Source of the DNA: a virus
Taxonomy: Duplodnaviria > Caudoviricetes
IMG/VR virus record: IMGVR_UViG_3300028903_000001
Location: 32,001 to 96,000 of that record
DNA: 64,000 nt
Reading direction: 5' to 3' (one strand)
The notes under the pieces were generated by a model. The model ran no database searches and was not told where the DNA came from. It was given only the letters and a program-made list of their open reading frames with translations. The translations under genes and the position numbers were made by a program. Each line of letters starts with the position of its first letter. Position 1 is the stretch's first letter. Below are positions 45,044 through 53,365 of this stretch, piece after piece.

Positions 45044-46012
45044 ATGTCTAACACCTACATCGTAAAGCCTGACTCGAGCGCCGCGCTCGCGACCGACCTC
45101 GAGGATCTTGCGGACCAGGCCAAGGACTTCATCAAAGCTTCGAAGTCGAAAGCGACGCGCACAGCTTACAGGTCGGACTTCGATGCCTTCACCTCGTGGT
45201 GCCGGGAACACGTTCTGGTGTCGATCCCGGCGAGACCCGAGACAGTGGCGATGTACGCCGCACACATGGCCCGCGAGGGGCTCGGCGTGTCGAGTGTCCA
45301 GCGAGCCATGGCGGCGATATCGCAGGCGCACAGAATGGCCGGAATCGAGTCGCCAACCCAGGCATCCGTGGTGAGGGAAACCGTCCGTGGCATCCGGCGC
45401 AGCCTCGGCGTGAAGCCGAACAAGAAGGCCCCCGTCACGATCGACGAGCTTCGAAAGATGGTCGCGACTCGCCCACAGACCCTGCTCGGCCTGCGAGACC
45501 GCGCGCTGCTTCTGCTCGGCTTCAGCGGCGCGTTTCGCCGCTCCGAGCTTGCCGCGCTCGACCATGCCGACCTGGATTTTGTCGCCGAGGGCGTCGTCGT
45601 CACGGTGCGTCGCAGCAAAACCGATCAGGAAGGCGAGGGGCTCGAGAAGGCGATTCCCTACGCCATGGACCAGACCATGTGCCCGGTCCTTACGCTTCAG
45701 TCCTGGCTCGACGCGGCTGGAACGAGTGATGGTCCCGTGTTTCCGAGCATCGATCGCGGCGACAACCTGTCTGGACGCATGAGCGACAGGGCCGTGGCAA
45801 GGACCGTGCAGAGAGCCGCGAGGCGCGTCGGTCTGGACCCGTCCAGATTCGCGGGGCACAGCCTCCGAGCCGGGTTTGCCACATCGGCCATTCTCGCCGG
45901 GAAATCGGAGGCAGATACGATGCGGCAGACCGGGCATAGGAGTATTGCCGTTTTCAGGGGTTATGTTCGAGTCGCTAATCTGTGGAAGAGTAATGCGTCT
46001 AAACTGCTTTGA
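45044..46012 (+). CDS. Tyrosine recombinase, Cre/TnpS-like
   Basis: Full catalytic set: RDRALLLLGFSGAFRRSEL, RSKTDQ, GHSLRAG, QTGHRS, GYVR; GGAG RBS before ATG 45044. Confidence 0.95.
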   Translation: MSNTYIVKPDSSAALATDLEDLADQAKDFIKASKSKATRTAYRSDFDAFTSWCREHVLVSIPARPETVAMYAAHMAREGLGVSSVQRAMAAISQAHRMAGIESPTQASVVRETVRGIRRSLGVKPNKKAPVTIDELRKMVATRPQTLLGLRDRALLLLGFSGAFRRSELAALDHADLDFVAEGVVVTVRRSKTDQEGEGLEKAIPYAMDQTMCPVLTLQSWLDAAGTSDGPVFPSIDRGDNLSGRMSDRAVARTVQRAARRVGLDPSRFAGHSLRAGFATSAILAGKSEADTMRQTGHRSIAVFRGYVRVANLWKSNASKLL

Positions 46013-46057
46013 TGGGGCGCAGCTACCATACCACTGCCGCCGCCTGGGGGCTGGCCG

Positions 46058-46989
46058 GTCTCGACAAGCAAGATGTCGAGCTACTACTGCCACACGGGAT
46101 CCGTGTTTCCTAGTTGATCTGTCACTCATGGGTCTCGACAAGCAAGATGTCGAGCTACTACCGCTACACTCGTCAAGCAGTTGGGACCTTGAGTTGGAGT
46201 GGGAGTCTCGACAAGCAAGATGTCGAGCTACTACTGCTACACGCCAGATAGGCCTCAGCGCGATCGTCAAGACCAAGGTCTCGACAAACAAGATGTCGAG
46301 CTACTACCGCTACCGCTGATGCAGACAAGCGTTTGACTGCGGCAAAGGAGTCTCGACAAGCAAGATGTCGAGCTACTACCGCTACCGGCTCGTCGCTCCC
46401 AGGGCGCGGCGCAACCAGGCTTGACAGGTCACGGCTCGACCCTGGTCTCGACAAGCAAGATGTCGAGCTACTACCGCTACCGCGCCTCGGTGAGGTATTT
46501 GCGGGAGACGACGCCGGGTCTCGACAAGCAAGATGTCGAGCTACTACCGCTACGATGACGATGGGGCGCGTCGCCATCCGAGATTGCCGCATGTCTCGAC
46601 AAGCAAGATGTCGAGCTACTACCGCTACTTAGAGACGTCTTCGCCTCGGGCGACCCGGAGAACGTCTCGACAAGCAAGATGTCGAGCTACTACCGCTACG
46701 ACCGGGTTCGAATTTCGCATCGAGGGCACCTCTCTTGTCTCGACAAGCAAGATGTCGAGCTACTACCGCTACAGGACAAAAAGGGGCAACCGAAGCCGGC
46801 ACACCCGCCGTCTCGACAAGCAAGATGTCGAGCTACTACCGCTACGTCGGGCAGGACGATCAAGATCCCATCGACGCGATTGTCTCGACAAGCAAGATGT
46901 CGAGCTACTACCGCTACCATCCCGCTACCCACCTGGAAGGCGCTCGGCGAAATGTCTCGACAAGCAAGATGTCGAGCTACTACCGCTAC
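46058..46989 (-). CRISPR. CRISPR array 2: 13 repeats, 12 spacers
   Basis: 36-bp repeat GTAGCGGTAGTAGCTCGACATCTTGCTTGTCGAGAC (minus strand; 7-bp stem CTCGACA/TGTCGAG near the 3' end); spacers 35-39 bp except one of 59 bp; variant repeats cluster at the leader-distal (left) end. Confidence 0.98.
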
Positions 46990-47168
46990 GAGTCTGGCAG
47001 GACGCTCGCAATTTCGACGGGTTACAGCACGACTTGCGAGCGGTCCTCCAAGCCTACTGTCTCGGATCAATTTTCAACGACCAGGATCGGCGTAGTGCCG
47101 CAGATTCTACCTCATCTCTGAGGCTTTCGAGCGGTCCCAGCGGTTTCGGGACCACCCAGGCGCTCGCG
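46990..47168 (-). promoter_or_regulatory. CRISPR leader, copy 2 (179 bp)
   Basis: Identical to 48422..48600 except at 4 positions; contains GCGAGCG/CGCTCG inverted and direct motifs and TTGAAAAT. Confidence 0.9.
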
Positions 47169-47738
47169 AAGCTTCTCGTTCTCCTTTTCCAAACTCCTGA
47201 CCCTTGCCTTCAGTGTCTTGTTCTCAGCCCTAAGCTCCCTATTCTCCCTGGACAGTTTATCGAACAGGTTCTCCTTCTGGGGCTTGACCCTAACCTCGGG
47301 GACGTAGTGCTTTCGGACTATCGACGCTGCGCTCCACGAACTCGGCTCTTTACCATTCCTGACTCGAAACTCAATGAGTTCTGCCATGGCAGATCTTGTT
47401 GCCAGACCGTGTACGGATCTTGACGGAGCATCGGGAGGAATGATGAGCAACTTCTCTGCCGCAGGGATACCTATCTTACGAATGTTGTCAATGCCGCCAC
47501 ACAACTCGACACAAAGTTTGAATCTCGCAAACCTTGTTGGCTGGGCAAGGTCACTCACATGGAGCACCTCCACAAATGTGGCCCACCCATACCTACCACC
47601 TACACCACTCTTCCATGCCGATTCGTTCTTTTCGAACCTGACGAGACCAGCCATGAAGTCAACCCCGGCCTCGGAGTATGCGGTCCTTAGCGCCTCGCAC
47701 TCCTTTACGAGCGCATCAAATCTCTTCTTGGTCGCCAT
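47112..47738 (-). CDS. Unknown protein embedded between the two CRISPR arrays, C-terminal coiled coil
   Basis: 208 aa, GAGGTG RBS; RYGWATFVEVL motif, leucine-zipper LSRENRELRAENKTLKARVRSLEKENEKL; last 18 codons are supplied by the leader copy. Confidence 0.8.
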   Translation of the reverse strand: MATKKRFDALVKECEALRTAYSEAGVDFMAGLVRFEKNESAWKSGVGGRYGWATFVEVLHVSDLAQPTRFARFKLCVELCGGIDNIRKIGIPAAEKLLIIPPDAPSRSVHGLATRSAMAELIEFRVRNGKEPSSWSAASIVRKHYVPEVRVKPQKENLFDKLSRENRELRAENKTLKARVRSLEKENEKLRERLGGPETAGTARKPQR

Positions 47739-47756
47739 GTCTCACCTCACTGTTAT

Positions 47757-48421
47757 CTATCGACTACCTAGTGTCGAGCTACTACCGCTACAAAGTCGAA
47801 TTGCGCGGAGATATCGTCCGTCGCGTGTCTCGACAAGCAAGATGTCGAGCTACTACCGCTACATCTCGCGTCATCGGCTTGCTGGCTCGGCAGTTCCACG
47901 CGGTGCTCCGTCTCGACAAGCAAGATGTCGAGCTACTACCGCTACGGTCTCCATATAGACCGGCACGAAATACGAATCGATGTCTCGACAAGCAAGATGT
48001 CGAGCTACTACCGCTACCGAATTCGGTCGATATCGGTGCGATTCTTGGCTGGCGTCTCGACAAGCAAGATGTCGAGCTACTACCGCTACCCCCAAGCTCA
48101 CACCTGTTGCACAGACCGTGATGTTCGTCTCGACAAGCAAGATGTCGAGCTACTACCGCTACCTGGCGTCTCGACAAGCAAGATGTCGAGCTACTACCGC
48201 TACAATGGGACAGACGAGGGCGGCAGGACGATGCAGCGGTCTCGACAAGCAAGATGTCGAGCTACTACCGCTACGATCGGATCGCGGAGGCCCGCGTCGC
48301 TGAGTGGTTGGCCGTCTCGACAAGCAAGATGTCGAGCTACTACCGCTACTGCGCTGGCCCGTGCCGTTGCGCAGTTTGACGCGCTGTCTCGACAAGCAAG
48401 ATGTCGAGCTACTACCGCTAC
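47757..48421 (-). CRISPR. CRISPR array 1: 9 full repeats plus a degenerate terminal repeat, 9 spacers
   Basis: Same 36-bp repeat at 47827, 47910, 47982, 48054, 48127, 48168, 48239, 48314 and 48386; degenerate copy at 47757..47791; spacers 35-39 bp except 47 bp and 5 bp. Confidence 0.98.
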
Positions 48422-48600
48422 GGGTCTGGCAGGACGCTCGCAATTTCGACGGGTTACAGCACGACTTGCGAGCGGTCCTCCAAGCCCACTGTCTCGGATC
48501 AATTTTCAACGACCAGGATCGGCGTAGTGCCGCAGATTCGACCTCATCTCTGAGGCTTTCGAGCGGTCCCAGCGGTTTCGGAACCACCCAGGCGCTCGCG
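48422..48600 (-). promoter_or_regulatory. CRISPR leader, copy 1 (179 bp)
   Basis: Fills the whole gap between the cas12m stop and the first repeat; duplicated at 46990..47168. Confidence 0.9.
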
Positions 48601-48601
48601 T

Positions 48602-50596
48602 TTACTCAGCCGCGACGGCGAGCATCTTCTCCTGTCTCCTGATGATTTCCAACACTTCGTTTTGCTTCCCGTCATCGTTGAGCATGTTCAACAATCTAAC
48701 GTGGAATGTATCACGAGTCAGTCCGCAATGCGAGCAGGAAAACATATGCGCCTTCACATCTTTATTTCCCTTCTCGAGTCTGCCGCACCTGGGGCATCTC
48801 ACTGAGCTATTCTCGACACTGACCTTCTCATAGAACACTCCCCTACCTCTGGCGGCATTCTTGATGCATTCGCGAAAGATGCCTGGGGCCACGATCTGGA
48901 GATTGGACCTCGACTTTTGTCTCTGCCTCTTACCAATCTCGCCCTCGCTCTTCTCTTCCTCTTTCTCCTTCTCCACTATCTGCTTGAAGTTGGTGCCGTC
49001 CACAAGTATTCGGGAGTACGTCCTCGCCAATCTGGCCGCGACGTTTCGATACGCATTGTTTCTTCTGCGTTTCGCCGTTTCATGCATACCCCCCTCAAAA
49101 CGGTACAGATGCAGGTTCTGCTTCCTCCATGCCATCATTCTCTCGTAAATCTCTGCGTCACCCTCGAATCGATTCTTCTCCCACGTCGTGACTAGATTGG
49201 CAAGCCGCCTTGGAGCCCTCCACTTTTGCATGCGAGCTATCGCCTGCTTTGATGTCGGTGTTCCATCGACACTCTTATCCTCCTCGTCATCGATGTCTCT
49301 TGCCGTAGCATTTCGCATCCACGCTGGCAGCTTATCGATCATGCTGAGCCAAGAGACTAGCTCCTTCATCGCCTTGTTGAAGTTGTCGTCCCTGGTGCGT
49401 GAGATCTCTTCCTTCCTTCTGAAGCTGGCGAAGATTCCGCTCCTGCCGCCGTCGCTCTCCACGTTGTATGGGCTCTGCACGCATCCCTTCCCACACTCGA
49501 TCTTTTCAACGATCTTGTCTCGAGACAGATCAAACACTCCGGTCTCCCCGTCCTCCGAGAGCCAATGCGCGACCCTGATCTTGTTGCCTTCCACTGCCCG
49601 CCATCCCAGCACTACGGCAACCGTGCCCCCTGCGGGCAGTGGCGGCTTCTCCGATTGCTTGTCAAGCTCTACCGTGATCTCACAGGACCAGCGCAGGTCT
49701 GGACCCCGCCTTCGCCTGGTAACGGTTACCCAGGTGATTCTCGAATTCGGTGGCAGCGGCCTATGAAGTATCATCGGCCACTTGGCTACGATGTATTCGC
49801 TCTTTCCCCTGGCGGTCCCGGCGACTGCCATGGTCAGAGTAGTCCTTGCCGCACGCCTCCTGTCGCACCGTCTTTCCGAGGTGAGCGCAACCGTGTCAAC
49901 CGGATCGATGATAGCTCTATGGTCGTTGCTAAAAATGTCAAGAGGGATTTTGCCCTTGCCGCCCTGTATCTGCACCGACAAAGACCCCTCACCTTTCCAC
50001 CGTTTGAATTCAGGGTTGTTGTCCTCCCTCCCTTCGTACATGGGGACCTTGGAACTCTCAAAGAATGCCTTGTCCACAAGTAACTTCGTGCCCCAGAAAG
50101 CCGGGGAGTCGTGACTGGCCTGTCTCCTCATCCTCGCCGCGATACCGTTGTTCGGTGTCTTGTCCGAAAAAGCTTCGGCTCTTGTCTTTTTCTTGCCAGT
50201 GCTTTCCTTGCCATTGATCTCGAGCATGCGGGCCTTTAGCGCTGGCGTGGCCCTCAACTCCTTGATCCTAGCAATGAGTTTGGCGATCTTTTCATCAATC
50301 GCCTCAACCTTTTCCGCGAACTCTTTGCTGGACCTGTCCTTGTCCGACTTGCCCTTGTAGAGCTTAGCCTTTTCCACGCCCAGGTCTTTGATTTGACCCA
50401 ATAGCTCTCGGATGCCGTACTCGTCTTCCGCTGCCCGCTTCAGATCCCTGACCTTGCACTCCACGCTCACTAGCTCATTTCTGTACCTATGCGCGTGCCA
50501 CAACTGCTCTTCCACCACATCCGCGTTAAAAACCGGAGGCAAGAGCCCATATTTCATCACCAATGGCATCGTGTTCCCCTTTCTTCTCTGCGTCAT
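48602..50596 (-). CDS. cas12m: Cas12m-like (type V-M / V-U1) effector with degenerate RuvC active site
   Basis: EQLWHAHRYRNELVSVE, FWGTKLLV, FKRWKGEGSLSVQIQGG, HRPLP, GTVAVVLGWR, WRAPRRLANL, RRNNAYR, ILVDG, APGIFR and CPRC...CSHC align by eye with Cas12m family motifs; directly upstream of leader and array. Likely start is ATG 50569 (AAGGGG RBS). Confidence 0.85.
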   Translation of the reverse strand: MTQRRKGNTMPLVMKYGLLPPVFNADVVEEQLWHAHRYRNELVSVECKVRDLKRAAEDEYGIRELLGQIKDLGVEKAKLYKGKSDKDRSSKEFAEKVEAIDEKIAKLIARIKELRATPALKARMLEINGKESTGKKKTRAEAFSDKTPNNGIAARMRRQASHDSPAFWGTKLLVDKAFFESSKVPMYEGREDNNPEFKRWKGEGSLSVQIQGGKGKIPLDIFSNDHRAIIDPVDTVALTSERRCDRRRAARTTLTMAVAGTARGKSEYIVAKWPMILHRPLPPNSRITWVTVTRRRRGPDLRWSCEITVELDKQSEKPPLPAGGTVAVVLGWRAVEGNKIRVAHWLSEDGETGVFDLSRDKIVEKIECGKGCVQSPYNVESDGGRSGIFASFRRKEEISRTRDDNFNKAMKELVSWLSMIDKLPAWMRNATARDIDDEEDKSVDGTPTSKQAIARMQKWRAPRRLANLVTTWEKNRFEGDAEIYERMMAWRKQNLHLYRFEGGMHETAKRRRNNAYRNVAARLARTYSRILVDGTNFKQIVEKEKEEEKSEGEIGKRQRQKSRSNLQIVAPGIFRECIKNAARGRGVFYEKVSVENSSVRCPRCGRLEKGNKDVKAHMFSCSHCGLTRDTFHVRLLNMLNDDGKQNEVLEIIRRQEKMLAVAAE

Positions 50597-50950
50597 CTAC
50601 TGTCGAGCTACTACTGCTACCTCGAACAACTCTCCGACCGTCACTCCGGTCGTATAGCTCTCATACCTCTCACCAACCTCTGTGAGACTAGCAAGTCTGA
50701 TTCCTTTTGGCCACTCAATTGTTTCGAGCCGAAACGATTTCTCTACCCTCGCCCACTTGTACAGCGAGCCGTCGGGCCAGCTATACTGATGCCTGTACTC
50801 GATACCGTTTTGCTCCAGAGTGGACTCGACGAGACGCTCGGCTAGTGACAAAACGAAGTCAGCCCTCGCCTCTCTGCCCATTTCTTCGCGCCCAGCTATG
50901 TTGAACAGGCCACTGTAGCTAAAGCTCATCGAGTAGTATCTGTAACTCAT
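50597..50950 (-). CDS. Hypothetical protein; C-terminus (VAVVARQ) encoded by the half repeat
   Basis: 117 aa, ATGA overlap with the exonuclease gene. Confidence 0.55.
   Translation of the reverse strand: MSYRYYSMSFSYSGLFNIAGREEMGREARADFVLSLAERLVESTLEQNGIEYRHQYSWPDGSLYKWARVEKSFRLETIEWPKGIRLASLTEVGERYESYTTGVTVGELFEVAVVARQ
50601..50620 (-). repeat. Orphan half CRISPR repeat upstream of cas12m
   Basis: GTAGCAGTAGTAGCTCGACA equals the first 20 nt of the repeat (same one-base variant as the repeat at 46205). Confidence 0.9.
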
Positions 50951-51640: not shown

Positions 51641-53365
51641 TCACTTTTCGCTACCAGACGTTGCCAATGCAACGCCCAGTGCCGATGCATCCAACAGGTT
51701 TCCCCGAAGGATGGGTTGATCTCCCAAAGCTCGCAGGAATATCCCGCGAGCGCCGTTGTAATCTCGATCCATTGACACGCCGGTCGATGCCGATCGGACA
51801 GTCTTTGCGCCACCAAGCTTGGCGTTGATCTCGCCGGTCCACGACACGGTCTTGCTCGTCCAAGCCTCGTTCTGGTCGAGCACGAGCTTGCCGTACTCGA
51901 ACGCCTTGTGCTTCAGGAAAGTCTTGAACCGATAGTGCGAGAACGTCAGCATGGATCGCACCGACTTCGCGCGAAGCCTGCGCGCCCCGCGCCGAACCAT
52001 CTCCGAGGTCTCGAACGTCGGCAGCACGATCACGTCGAAGCTCTTGACCAGAAACGCTGCCACCTTGTGGTGCAGATCGTCTACAAGGTTTCGAATCCTG
52101 ACCTGCATGCTCACGATAGCACGCCGAAGATTTCGCTTCCGAAGACGATGCGTCTCCAACCTGCGCCTCGAAATGAGGTCATCCATGTGCGAGCACAACC
52201 GCTGAATCTTCCCGAAGTCGCCAGCACCAAGCTTGCCGCAACTGGACTCCGTGTAGAACGTTTGGAAGGATCGTATCCCTGGATCGAGAGCAACGACGCG
52301 CCCTTGGTTTTCGGCTACGCACCGCTTTTGCTGCACGGGAACGATCAGAAACCACCGCCCTCTTTCGCAGACTAGCCTAAGATCGCAATGTTCCTTTGGT
52401 ACCTCCTCGACCATTCGAAGCGCCCCTCGGGATAGAGTCGGGTAGACCCCACCGTTTCGAAGTGCGCTTTTGGGGATGTAGCAGGACTGCACCGGGTTCT
52501 TTCTCGACCTGAACCCGACGTCCTGAAAGCCTCCCCCCTCCTTGAATCTGCGCTTTGCCGCCGACACGGCTTTACAGGCATCGCGCACCGCCACTGACCT
52601 GATCTGGTAGGGCGTCTCCTCGGACCAAGCAGGGAGACCTCGCAGCAGCCCCGTCTTGATCGACTTCCAGTTCGCCTTCGTCCCCGGGGTCTTCAGAAAG
52701 CTCACGGCAGCGTTGAAGGCGACGCGCGCAGTCCCAAACCACTGTCTGAAGATGCTCTCCTGCTGCCTAGTGGGGTAGAGTCGGATCTTCTTTGATTTGA
52801 GAAGCGTATCGTCGCAGCCCGTGCATTCGGCAAGAGAAGACGTGAATGATGGCGAGAAGATCGTCGGATAGCTCTCGCTCGGGGCTGTGTTCAACTCGAT
52901 CGAGAACCAAGAGTTCGCCACCGTTTTGCTCGAGCATGTGGGCGATGAGTTCGACACCAAAGCGGGCAAGGCGGTCCTTGTGGGCAACCACAACCGTGAG
53001 CTTTGCTCCTCATGCCAATCGGTCCAGTAGGGAGAGCAGTCCTTTACGCTTGAAGTTGAGACCACTTCCGATGTCCTTGACGATTTCGGCATCAGGGAAG
53101 CGCTGTCGCATGTAGACAACCTGTCTTGCGAGGTCGTCCTTTTGCTTCGGGGAGGAGACCCTGAAGTAGCAGATGGTGGCGGGGGGCAAGGCGTCTTTGA
53201 CGAAGGACTCGACATCGAAGAGCCGCTGACCCGCAGGGTTTCTAACGTGTTTGATGAGTCCAGCATCAGCGTATTTCCGCACCGTATTGGGGGCACATGC
53301 CGAGCGACTGGCATGCCATCCGTAGAGGGACGAGCTTTATGTCGTATGGTAGAGGACGGTGGCAT
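51641..53365 (-). CDS. tnpB: IS607 TnpB RNA-guided nuclease (start uncertain; core domain about 51641..52806)
   Basis: KSKKIRLYP, VVALDPGIRSF (RuvC-I Asp), VIVLP then QNEAWTSKT (displaced Glu typical of IS607/Fanzor-like TnpB), DRDYNGARGIFLR (RuvC-III Asp); zinc-finger cysteines absent. Confidence 0.9.
   Translation of the reverse strand: MPPSSTIRHKARPSTDGMPVARHVPPIRCGNTLMLDSSNTLETLRVSGSSMSSPSSKTPCPPPPSATSGSPPRSKRTTSQDRLSTCDSASLMPKSSRTSEVVSTSSVKDCSPYWTDWHEEQSSRLWLPTRTALPALVSNSSPTCSSKTVANSWFSIELNTAPSESYPTIFSPSFTSSLAECTGCDDTLLKSKKIRLYPTRQQESIFRQWFGTARVAFNAAVSFLKTPGTKANWKSIKTGLLRGLPAWSEETPYQIRSVAVRDACKAVSAAKRRFKEGGGFQDVGFRSRKNPVQSCYIPKSALRNGGVYPTLSRGALRMVEEVPKEHCDLRLVCERGRWFLIVPVQQKRCVAENQGRVVALDPGIRSFQTFYTESSCGKLGAGDFGKIQRLCSHMDDLISRRRLETHRLRKRNLRRAIVSMQVRIRNLVDDLHHKVAAFLVKSFDVIVLPTFETSEMVRRGARRLRAKSVRSMLTFSHYRFKTFLKHKAFEYGKLVLDQNEAWTSKTVSWTGEINAKLGGAKTVRSASTGVSMDRDYNGARGIFLRALGDQPILRGNLLDASALGVALATSGSEK
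52767..53340 (-). pseudogene. tnpA: IS607 TnpA serine recombinase, inactivated
   Basis: RVSSPKQKDDLARQ, DIGSGLNFKRKGL, KDRLARFG and ELSDDLLAIIHVFSCR motifs; start mutated to ATA (53340), +1 frameshift in a C5 run (53289..53293), in-frame TGA at 53010..53012. Confidence 0.88.

What the first reader, a model, noticed from the sequence alone, without database searches (positions are those of the whole stretch)
47738..50620. Half-repeats sit about 30 nt upstream of both cas12m and the embedded gene: possible repeat-mediated autoregulation
Seen: the first 20 nt of the repeat occur alone at 50601..50620, 31 nt upstream of the likely cas12m ATG (50569). The same 20 nt at 47772..47791 lie 33 nt upstream of the ATG of the 208-aa gene, in the same orientation with an RBS in between. 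The orphan copy can form an alternative hairpin (TCGAG...CTCGA) with upstream sequence; the other copy keeps a weakened TCGAC/GTCGA stem. Inference: the effector may bind or cut its own mRNA leader, release monocistronic mRNAs from a long viral transcript, or use a degenerate repeat to guide self-repression. Alternatively these are scars of cassette insertion by recombination at repeats.
Basis: partly seen in the sequence, partly recalled or inferred. Interest (0 to 1): 0.7.

Follow-up and report, generated by a model that had tools for sequence, protein, structure and literature searches.

The report
Repeat fragments before cas12m and partner
Two 20-base pieces of the CRISPR repeat really do sit about 30 bases in front of cas12m and of its neighbour gene in this 120-kb phage, but they look like leftovers of recombination in a much-rearranged CRISPR locus, not a purpose-built self-regulation switch.

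Summary
The first 20 nt of the 36-nt repeat occur at 47772-47791 (20/20) and 50601-50620 (19/20), minus strand, 33 and 31 nt before the ATGs of the 208-aa gene (g208) and cas12m. Chance expectation is 0.

- The g208 copy is the degenerate last repeat of array 1. Array 1, a second leader and a 57-nt piece of g208's own 3' end form an ~860-bp lineage-specific insertion. In seven relatives g208 follows cas12m directly.
- The cas12m copy is an orphan that encodes the last 7 codons of the upstream ORF. It is absent at the same site in the two closest relatives.
- It lacks the 3' arm of the pseudoknot that forms the Cas12m scaffold. Its alternative hairpin folds no better than shuffles.

The best reading is recombination or template-switch scars at the repeat hairpin (confidence 0.5).

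One caveat: 11 of 81 Cas12m loci carry full-length scaffold-like hairpins, often as mini-arrays, just upstream of cas12m on the same strand. Repeat-based control of cas12m is therefore plausible in the family, and the window's elements could be decayed versions. I found no paper describing this for type V-M. It parallels the standalone repeats known upstream of cas12a.

The parts
50601..50620 (-). Orphan half-repeat (repeat positions 1-20, 19/20; identical to the old A6 variant of the repeat at 46221-46240). It encodes the last 7 codons (VAVVARQ) of ORF117. Its stop codon follows at 50597-50599.
50585..50620 (-). 36-nt frame starting at the orphan. It could be the relic of a full standalone repeat. 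Its 3' 16 nt, GTAGATGACGCAGAGA, are shared with L009 (13/16) and are not significantly repeat-like.
   Evidence: score 5.7 against 30.1 for true repeats; 8.9 bits, E 0.39; p 0.10
50597..50950 (-). ORF117, a conserved phage gene (85-90% identical homologues). Its C-terminal tail diverges exactly where the half-repeat begins.
48602..50569 (-). cas12m (655 aa)
   Evidence: solved Cas12m chains, E 1.9e-37 to 4e-17; TNB domain
48544..48600 (-). Duplicated fragment of the last 19 codons of g208, lying directly after the cas12m stop. This is the left end of the inserted segment.
   Evidence: 216-nt duplication, 4 differences
48422..48543 (-). Leader copy A (conserved GACCGCTCGCAA...TTGCGAGCG hairpin; -10-like TGGGCT against TAGGCT in copy B)
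47827..48421 (-). CRISPR array 1: 9 full 36-nt repeats, including one 5-nt spacer (48163-48167) and one 47-nt spacer
47756..47791 (-). Degenerate terminal repeat of array 1. Positions 1-20 are exact, at normal array spacing (71 nt). The 3' half has diverged but keeps a 5-bp helix 2 and 3/3 helix-1 pairs. It ends 17 nt before the g208 ATG.
   Evidence: score 15.4; CM aligns only the 5' 19 nt, E 1.6
47112..47738 (-). g208: conserved partner gene of this Cas12m clade, with a helical N-domain, a C-terminal coiled coil and a basic tail
46990..47111 (-). Leader copy B (the ancestral position, after g208)
46058..46989 (-). CRISPR array 2: 13 repeats. The two trailer-end variants carry A at position 6, as the orphan does.

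Best explanation
Both half-repeats are by-products of illegitimate recombination or template switching at the CRISPR repeat hairpin, in a locus that rearranges often. They are not a dedicated regulatory device. The ancestral order in this phage clade is cas12m, then g208 (stop and start adjacent or overlapping), then leader, then array. In the window's lineage a segment was inserted exactly between the cas12m stop and the g208 start. It holds the last 57 nt of g208, a leader copy, nine repeat-spacer units and a final repeat that is intact only to position 20. So the half-repeat before g208 is simply the degenerate terminal repeat of that extra array, and g208 is now read through from it. The half-repeat before cas12m is a separate, lineage-specific 20-nt copy of an old repeat variant. 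It overwrote about 15 nt at the junction between ORF117 and cas12m. Both copies stop at the last base of the first stem arm (CTCGACA). A polymerase stalled at the hairpin would be expected to switch template there. This step is inferred, not shown. The orphan lacks the part of the repeat that builds the Cas12m-binding pseudoknot, so Cas12m should not recognise it as a crRNA scaffold. The terminal repeat keeps a weakened scaffold. If Cas12m still binds it, the g208 RBS and AUG (guide positions about 9-21) would be covered. That would be a side effect of the rearrangement.
For: (1) Seven relatives carry g208 directly after cas12m with no array between: L009, L012/L013, L014, L119, L120, L121. 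L016, L017 and L019 also carry the gene after cas12m. (2) A 216-nt duplication with 4 differences begins with the last 19 codons of g208, placed right after the cas12m stop. This fixes the direction of the event. (3) Arrays 1 and 2 share no spacers. (4) The half-repeat at 47772 sits at normal array spacing, 71 nt. Fragments that keep only the 5' half are common in the tails of other Cas12m arrays: L018, L035, L055, L092. (5) At the orphan site the flanks are collinear with L009 at about 86% identity. In place of the 20 nt, L009 has GAGCGAAAGTCATTG. L118 has the same ORF but no cas12m, and it has neither. (6) Across 42 distinct Cas12m repeats, positions 9-11/20-22 and 14-19/29-34 covary as a pseudoknot and the 3' AC is invariant. 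This matches the Cas12m2 structure (PMC10442227). The orphan has none of the 3' partners. (7) The covariance model gives the orphan 8.9 bits (E 0.39) against 29.1 bits for true repeats. (8) Its alternative hairpin has z = -0.08 to -0.34. (9) Other signs of sloppy recombination occur in these arrays: a 5-nt spacer, 47- and 59-nt spacers, and a truncated repeat in L014.
Against: Repeat-like elements directly upstream of cas12m are enriched in the family: 10 of 69 loci on the same strand, against 1 of 69 on the opposite strand and 1 of 66 further upstream. A second member of the clade, L119, has the leader end plus repeat positions 1-14 lying 15 nt before its cas12m ATG. So this type of junction recurs and might be selected. 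Against L118, the insertion in the window is 35 nt, about one repeat length, and abuts the RBS as the full element of L121 does. The orphan has no change against an existing repeat variant. The two 3' continuations match at 8 of 16 positions, which is marginal (about p 0.05 by my own estimate). With only three sequences at the orphan site, which state is ancestral rests on parsimony. No RNA or protein-binding data exist.
Confidence: 0.5

Rival explanations
1. One reading: the half-repeats are working Cas12m-responsive leader elements. Cas12m binds or cuts the mRNA at them, either releasing monocistronic mRNAs from the long phage transcript or repressing translation of cas12m and g208.
For: Both copies have the same orientation and similar spacing before an RBS. 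The terminal repeat before g208 keeps helix 1 (3/3 pairs) and a 5-bp helix 2. It scores 15.4 on the family pairing-aware matrix, against a null 99th percentile of 8.3. Its putative guide would cover the g208 RBS and AUG. Full-length scaffold-like elements precede cas12m in about 14% of loci. In L121 a promoter-like site ends 7 nt before such an element.
Against: The orphan lacks the scaffold and is absent in L009 and L118. The covariance model finds neither copy significant as a full element (E 0.39 and 1.6). Neither hairpin is stabler than shuffles. According to the papers, Cas12m cuts pre-crRNA upstream of a scaffold that it recognises. That scaffold is the part missing here.
Confidence: 0.15
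2. The orphan is the decayed relic of a once full-length standalone repeat, or of the terminal repeat of a former upstream mini-array. That element sat against the cas12m RBS in the common ancestor of the window phage and L009, as in L121, L036, L043, L026, L059 and L021. It may have been regulatory then. Now only the 5' half survives.
For: Against L118 the window has a 35-nt insertion, about one repeat, directly before the RBS. L009 has a 25-30-nt insertion at the same place and shares the 3' core GTARATGACGCRGWG. The 36-nt frame ends 15 nt before the ATG, close to the 14-17 nt seen for the L121 element. The best match of the 3' 16 nt is the repeat of clade member L119. The orphan carries the ancestral A6 variant.
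Against: The likeness of the 3' 16 nt to repeat 3' halves is not significant (p 0.10 gapped, 0.38 ungapped). Neutral decay should not leave one half at 20/20 and the other unrecognisable. In L009 the 5' part (AGCGAAAG) matches the L118 backbone, which points to backbone sequence and not a decayed repeat.
Confidence: 0.2
3. The 20-nt motif works at the DNA level. It could be an operator for g208, a possible helix-turn-helix plus coiled-coil dimer. Or it could be a short homology patch that lets the cas12m-array cassette be excised, exchanged or recaptured between co-infecting phages.
For: g208 is a strictly conserved neighbour of cas12m and the arrays. It has weak ParB/Spo0J-like DNA-binding-domain matches (Z 4.7-5.6). 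The CRISPR module is mosaic: 66-70% identity against 85-92% for the backbone. Shmakov et al. proposed standalone repeats as recombination targets in V-A loci (PMC10120712).
Against: The fold matches are below the level that separates true relatives from common helical arrangements. The left mosaic breakpoint lies about 217 nt inside cas12m, not at the orphan. Nothing here shows DNA binding.
Confidence: 0.07

Closest known systems
Degenerate terminal repeat of a CRISPR array
   Same: The copy at 47756-47791 lies at the trailer end of array 1 at regular spacing. Its 5' part is intact and its 3' part has diverged.
   Different: It abuts the RBS of a conserved cas12m-associated gene. The whole array with a leader copy is a recent segmental insertion.
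Standalone repeat units (SRUs) and mini-arrays next to effector genes, described for subtype V-A (upstream of cas12a) and type I (Shmakov et al. 2023, PMC10120712)
   Same: A repeat-derived sequence of 16 nt or more lies outside the array, just upstream of the effector gene in the same orientation. Its function is unknown, and both recombination remnant and regulator have been proposed.
   Different: This is subtype V-M in a phage. Only the 5' half of the repeat is present, which is the part not kept in the crRNA scaffold. It overlaps the end of an upstream ORF and is not conserved in the nearest relatives.
Cas-regulating crRNA-like guides: the long tracrRNA of Cas9 (Workman et al. 2021, bioRxiv 10.1101/2020.05.21.102756), and CreR and mini-array guides (CreR recalled from my own knowledge)
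   Same: The general idea is the same: a repeat-derived RNA lets the effector control its own expression.
   Different: Those elements keep the effector-binding handle and carry a spacer partly complementary to the cas promoter. The window's orphan has no handle, and no spacer matches the locus.
Cas12m (type V-M) systems of plasmids and bacteria (Wu et al. 2022; PMC10442227; PMC11013384)
   Same: A compact effector with a TNB zinc ribbon, 36-nt repeats with a pseudoknot scaffold, no tracrRNA and no cas1/cas2.
   Different: It is encoded by a 120-kb phage, has two arrays with duplicated leaders, and carries a conserved extra gene (g208) not reported for V-M loci in the papers I read.

Membership tests
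Type V-M CRISPR-Cas (Cas12m) | Effector homologous to characterised Cas12m proteins | tested here: met
   matches to solved Cas12m chains 23vw_A (E 1.9e-37), 8pm4_A (4.9e-29) and 8hio/8hhl Cas12m2 (4.4e-17) over nearly the full length. Cas12f1-like TNB domain.
Type V-M CRISPR-Cas (Cas12m) | Adjacent array of about 36-nt repeats whose 3' part forms the pseudoknot/stem scaffold ending in AC, transcribed in the same direction as the effector | tested here: met
   both helices covary across 42 repeats (94% of cells paired; 0 of 500 shuffles reach this). The window repeat keeps helix 2 (6-7 bp) and 2 of 3 helix-1 pairs.
Type V-M CRISPR-Cas (Cas12m) | No adaptation genes and no tracrRNA | tested here: met
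   no Cas1 or Cas2 match in the complete phage; no anti-sense copy of the repeat 5' half. Only the 5' half was searched genome-wide.
Type V-M CRISPR-Cas (Cas12m) | DNA binding without cleavage; self-processing of pre-crRNA | not testable with these tools
   These are biochemical properties. RuvC residues were not examined here.
Degenerate terminal repeat of a CRISPR array (for 47756-47791) | Last unit of an array at regular spacing, partly diverged from the consensus | tested here: met
   (71-nt spacing after the repeat at 47843). (positions 1-20 identical; about 10 of 15 in the 3' part with a 1-nt deletion).
Standalone repeat unit adjacent to an effector gene (Shmakov et al. 2023) (for 50601-50620) | Match of 16 nt or more to the locus's own repeat, inside the CRISPR-cas locus but outside any array | tested here: met
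   19/20 match, 2,180 nt from the nearest array repeat.
Standalone repeat unit adjacent to an effector gene (Shmakov et al. 2023) (for 50601-50620) | Conserved in closely related loci (their criterion for a likely functional element) | tested here: not met
   L009 has 9/20 to its own repeat and 11/20 to the window's repeat at the orthologous site. L118 lacks it. L012 and L014 have none upstream. L119 has a different partial copy.
Regulatory crRNA-like guide (mini-array, CreR or tracr-L type) | Keeps the effector-binding handle of the repeat (for type V, the 3' part with the hairpin) | tested here: not met
   the orphan holds positions 1-20 only. The covariance model gives 8.9 bits, E 0.39.
Regulatory crRNA-like guide (mini-array, CreR or tracr-L type) | A spacer-like segment partly complementary to a cas promoter or another locus gene | tested here: not met
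   the spacers give only chance-level 13-17-nt matches to the phage genome; the UTR segments have no second copy.
tracrRNA / anti-repeat | Complementary (opposite-sense) to the repeat | tested here: not met
   all 24 copies are on the same strand as the array.

The most novel reading that the evidence does not exclude
In many type V-M loci cas12m is transcribed as the 3' extension of a short, degenerate mini-array. The last repeat-like pseudoknot sits against the RBS, so Cas12m binds its own mRNA like a crRNA. Its 'guide' is then the ribosome-binding site and start codon, which gives translational self-limitation or self-processing. In this phage the same logic would apply to the conserved partner gene g208, through the degenerate terminal repeat of array 1. 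The orphan before cas12m would be a disabled or evolving version of such an element.
Probability: 0.2. Interest if true: 0.75.

Novelty: new member of a known kind. Interest (0 to 1): 0.45.

Why it matters
For this window, the result turns an attractive regulatory story into a documented case of how phage CRISPR loci rearrange. A leader and array were duplicated into the junction of two translationally coupled genes, and repeat fragments were left at gene starts. The comparison also produced two leads that go beyond the window. First, about one in seven cas12m genes is preceded by crRNA-scaffold-like hairpins on the same strand, a V-M counterpart of the unexplained standalone repeats upstream of cas12a. 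Cas12m binds without cutting, so it is a natural candidate for self-control through its own 5' leader, and this can be tested directly with existing purified Cas12m orthologues. Second, a conserved, uncharacterised gene (g208) accompanies cas12m throughout this phage clade. Both matter to people who use Cas12m as a compact programmable repressor or base-editor scaffold. Built-in feedback elements or accessory factors could affect dosage and performance.

Tried and rejected
- **Close relatives in annotated collections.** The GenBank phage search found no match. The plasmid search found only a 26%-identical Allomeiothermus hit. The first IMG/VR scan with the single protein found nothing.
- **RNA evidence.** No RNA holder is listed for the stretch. 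Only two DNA contig runs could be laid. They show no alternative joints.
- **Self-targeting spacers as a route to autoregulation.** Only chance-level matches appeared.
- **Origin of the 33 nt before g208 and the 31 nt before cas12m.** Neither has a second copy in the phage or in any locus, apart from the common RBS motif.
- **Fold and family of g208.** Pfam and PDB sequence searches gave only coiled-coil noise. Foldseek gave nothing below E 1. VIA-align gave weak ParB/Spo0J/DnaA-domain rows at Z 4.7-5.7, which is inconclusive.
- **More outgroups for the ORF117-cas12m junction.** The representative search found only homologues of 42% identity or less besides L009's. The genome collection gave no closer Cas12m and no upstream elements in 8 usable loci.
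- **Whether the 16 nt after the orphan are a decayed repeat 3' half.** The test was not significant.
- **A repeat-like stretch inside the window's own cas12m (50342-50377).** It looked similar by eye, but the covariance model gives 4 bits, E 4.4, so I dropped it.
- **Pair counting on the upstream elements.** I did not run it, because they were selected with a pairing-aware score and the count would be circular.


Full report
**What is in the sequence**

The window is bases 32001-96000 of a complete 119,895-bp phage record with direct terminal repeats. All features below are on the minus strand, listed 5' to 3':

- A DnaQ-like exonuclease (51816-50947).
- ORF117 (50950-50597).
- cas12m (50569-48602, 655 aa).
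- A leader.
- Array 1 (48421-47827, nine full 36-nt repeats).
- A partly degenerate tenth repeat (47791-47756).
- The 208-aa gene g208 (47738-47112).
- A second leader.
- Array 2 (46989-46058, 13 repeats).
- A tyrosine integrase on the other strand.

The effector matches solved Cas12m structures over nearly its full length, with E 1.9e-37 to 4e-17. The phage has no Cas1 or Cas2.

**The observation**

- The first 20 nt of the repeat (GTAGCGGTAGTAGCTCGACA) occur 24 times with up to 3 mismatches. All are on the minus strand, and shuffles give none.
- Two of the 24 are not part of a full repeat: 47772-47791 (exact) and 50601-50620 (one change, G6 to A).
- They lie 33 and 31 nt before the ATGs of g208 and cas12m, with purine-rich RBS-like stretches in between.
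- The orphan's A6 variant is identical to the first 20 nt of a trailer-end repeat of array 2 (46221-46240). A is also the state at this position in the repeats of relatives.
- Two independent contig sets from activated-sludge DNA runs cover both junctions unchanged. The 196-nt leader contig has about double depth, as expected for two copies.

**The copy before g208**

- Relatives of the Cas12m were fetched from metagenomes.
- In L009 (56% identical; syntenic from DUF5131 through the exonuclease and an ORF122 to the integrase), L012/L013, L014, L119, L120 and L121, a g208 homologue starts at or overlaps the cas12m stop. The leader and array follow g208.
- L016, L017 and L019 also carry the gene after cas12m.
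- The window alone has a leader and an array between the two genes.
- The 216-nt duplication 46953-47168 = 48385-48600 has four differences. It starts with the last 19 codons of g208, which therefore lie as a fragment directly after the cas12m stop.
- This fixes the direction of the event. About 860 bp were inserted between two formerly coupled genes: the g208 3' fragment, a leader, nine repeat-spacer units and a final repeat intact to position 20.
- The two arrays share no spacer. The donor was therefore probably another genome of the population and not array 2 itself. This is an inference.
- The half-repeat at 47772-47791 sits at normal array spacing (71 nt), so it is the degenerate terminal repeat of that array.
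- Repeat fragments that keep only the 5' half are common in the tails of other Cas12m arrays.

**The copy before cas12m**

- The backbone of the window phage and L009 is 85-92% identical at the DNA level. The block from the exonuclease through the first roughly 217 nt of cas12m is 86% identical. The rest of the CRISPR module is only 66-70% identical.
- Inside that 86% block the orphan is a local difference. The window reads ttcgag-GTAGCAGTAGTAGCTCGACA-GTAGATGACGCAGAG-aagaaagggg. L009 reads ttcaag-GAGCGAAAGTCATTG-GTAAATGACGCGGTG-aaagggg.
- L118 is a third phage with an 85% identical ORF but another gene instead of cas12m. It reads ttcgag-AAGCGAAAGGGGAACAGAG-ATG.
- The ORF products are alike up to ...TVGELF and then differ. 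The half-repeat therefore supplies the last seven codons of ORF117.
- L009 matches its own repeat at 9 of 20 positions here. L012 and L014 have nothing upstream.
- The orphan is thus lineage-specific. By parsimony it is derived, because L009 shares AGCGAAAG with L118. With three sequences this polarity is not firm.

**Can Cas12m recognise the two copies?**

- In the Cas12m2 structure the scaffold is built from repeat nucleotides -29 to -1. A pseudoknot forms between -22..-17 and -8..-3, and the 5' seven nucleotides are disordered. Cleavage occurs upstream of the scaffold (PMC10442227; PMC11013384).
- I aligned 42 distinct repeats of Cas12m loci. Positions 9-11/20-22 and 14-19/29-34 covary strongly: 94% of cells are paired, there are 129 double changes, and 0 of 500 shuffles reach this. 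The 3' AC is invariant.
- The orphan has only the 5' partners. A covariance model gives it 8.9 bits (E 0.39) against 29.1 bits for true repeats.
- The terminal repeat before g208 keeps three helix-1 pairs and a 5-bp helix 2. It scores 15.4 on a pairing-aware matrix (true repeats 30.1; null 99th percentile 8.3). The covariance model, however, aligns only its 5' 19 nt (E 1.6).
- If the terminal repeat is still bound, the g208 RBS and AUG would fall at guide positions about 9-21. This is inference.

**Family context**

- I scanned 73 non-redundant Cas12m loci with the matrix. Eleven have a full-length scaffold-like element within 200 nt upstream of cas12m on the same strand.
- Several are tandem mini-arrays with spacers of 7-35 nt: L036, L043, L026 and L059. 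L021 has longer spacers. The last unit ends 14-50 nt before the ATG.
- In a subset of 69 loci the counts are 10 on the same strand upstream, 1 on the opposite strand and 1 of 66 in the next 215 nt upstream.
- Eight loci from genomes added none. The total is 11 of 81.
- Copies within one locus differ in stem sequence but keep pairing. They were, however, selected with a pairing-aware score.
- In L121 a promoter-like site (TTGACA-16-TAGATT) ends 7 nt before the element.
- In L119 the 38 nt before the ATG begin with 23 nt identical to its own leader end plus repeat positions 1-14. The 3' 23 nt of its repeat recur inside the gene at +196.
- Shmakov et al. described standalone repeats upstream of cas12a in a third to a half of V-A loci, without an established function (PMC10120712).
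- I found no paper reporting this for V-M. Phage-borne Cas12m itself was first reported in a 2026 preprint.

**Verdict**

For this window the evidence favours recombination or template-switch scars. Both truncations fall at the end of the first stem arm, the locus is full of other aberrant junctions, and the orphan is neither conserved nor scaffold-competent.

- A relic of a once full-length upstream element remains possible. The insertion against L118 is 35 nt, about one repeat, but the test of the 3' half gave p 0.10.
- A working Cas12m-responsive leader is least likely for the orphan and open for the g208 copy.
- The family-wide upstream elements and the conserved partner gene g208 are the more interesting leads. 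The g208 model has pLDDT 84.7, with a helical N-domain and a coiled coil. It has only weak ParB-like matches.

Noticed in passing
window 47112-47738 (-); L009:9988-10614; L012:2766-3422; L014:9607-10272; L119:1940-2593; L120:2098-2676; L121:1940-2590: The 208-aa gene is a conserved partner of this Cas12m clade. Outside this window it is always directly downstream of cas12m, with stop and start adjacent or overlapping. It has a helical N-domain (weak ParB/Spo0J-like matches; an Atlas lead to DUF3102), a leucine-zipper-like coiled coil and a basic tail. It was not described for V-M loci in the papers I read.
   Followed up: partly
L036:332-413; L043:490-640; L026:5831-5969; L059:262-458; L021:5745-5977; L035:5908-5943; L121:55-91; L106:5902-5937; L112:5838-5873; L094:1914-1949; L100:5846-5881: Eleven of 81 Cas12m loci have one to four full-length crRNA-scaffold-like hairpins just upstream of cas12m on the same strand. 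Several form mini-arrays with unusually short spacers. The elements are strongly enriched against the opposite strand and against sequence further upstream. They are candidates for an autoregulatory 5' leader.
   Followed up: partly
L119:1-38 and L119:234-256; L014:9188-9215: Pieces of the locus's own repeat lie inside or around the cas12m coding sequence. L119 has the leader end plus repeat positions 1-14 lying 15 nt before the ATG, and the exact 3' 23 nt of its repeat at +196..+218. L014 has a 24/28 copy, including the hairpin, at +1448.
   Followed up: partly
window 50352 (about +217 nt into cas12m) and 46005: Mosaic structure against phage L009. The backbone is 85-92% identical, but the CRISPR module (most of cas12m, g208, leader) is only 66-70% identical. 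The left breakpoint lies inside the cas12m N-terminal region, at about the same place as the in-gene repeat piece of L119. The module seems to be exchanged between related phages.
   Followed up: partly
window 51641-53365 (-): A 574-aa TnpB-like protein (HTH_OrfB_IS605, OrfB_IS605 and TNB domains, with an N-terminal extension of about 190 aa) is an insertion between the DUF5131 gene and the exonuclease. It is absent from the syntenic phage L009.
   Followed up: no
window 48163-48167, 47863-47909, 46386-46444; L014:10356-10463: Aberrant array units occur in the window: a 5-nt spacer, and spacers of 47 and 59 nt. In L014, a repeat is followed by a 5-nt spacer, a 31-nt truncated repeat and a full repeat without a spacer. 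This suggests frequent slippage or recombination in these arrays.
   Followed up: no
window 48436-48500 and 47004-47068; L009:10680-10735; L014:10295-10350: The leaders of this clade share a conserved hairpin (GACCGCTCGCAA ... TTGCGAGCG, with compensating changes in L014). It lies just after a promoter-like TTGAAA-N15-17-TAGGYT. In the window's copy A the -10-like box reads TGGGCT instead of TAGGCT.
   Followed up: no
L036:145-209: An inverted copy of the repeat (27 nt) lies 300 nt upstream of cas12m. It has its own minus-strand promoter-like site (TTGACA-17-TACAGT with TG). This may be a divergently transcribed crRNA-like RNA.
   Followed up: no
window 46003-46034 (-): After the last full repeat of array 2 and a short 23-nt spacer there is a further degenerate repeat-like stretch (GTGGTATGGTAGCTGCGCCCCATCA...). 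It resembles the L009-type repeat more than the window's own. It lies just before sequence shared with L009 next to the integrase gene.
   Followed up: no
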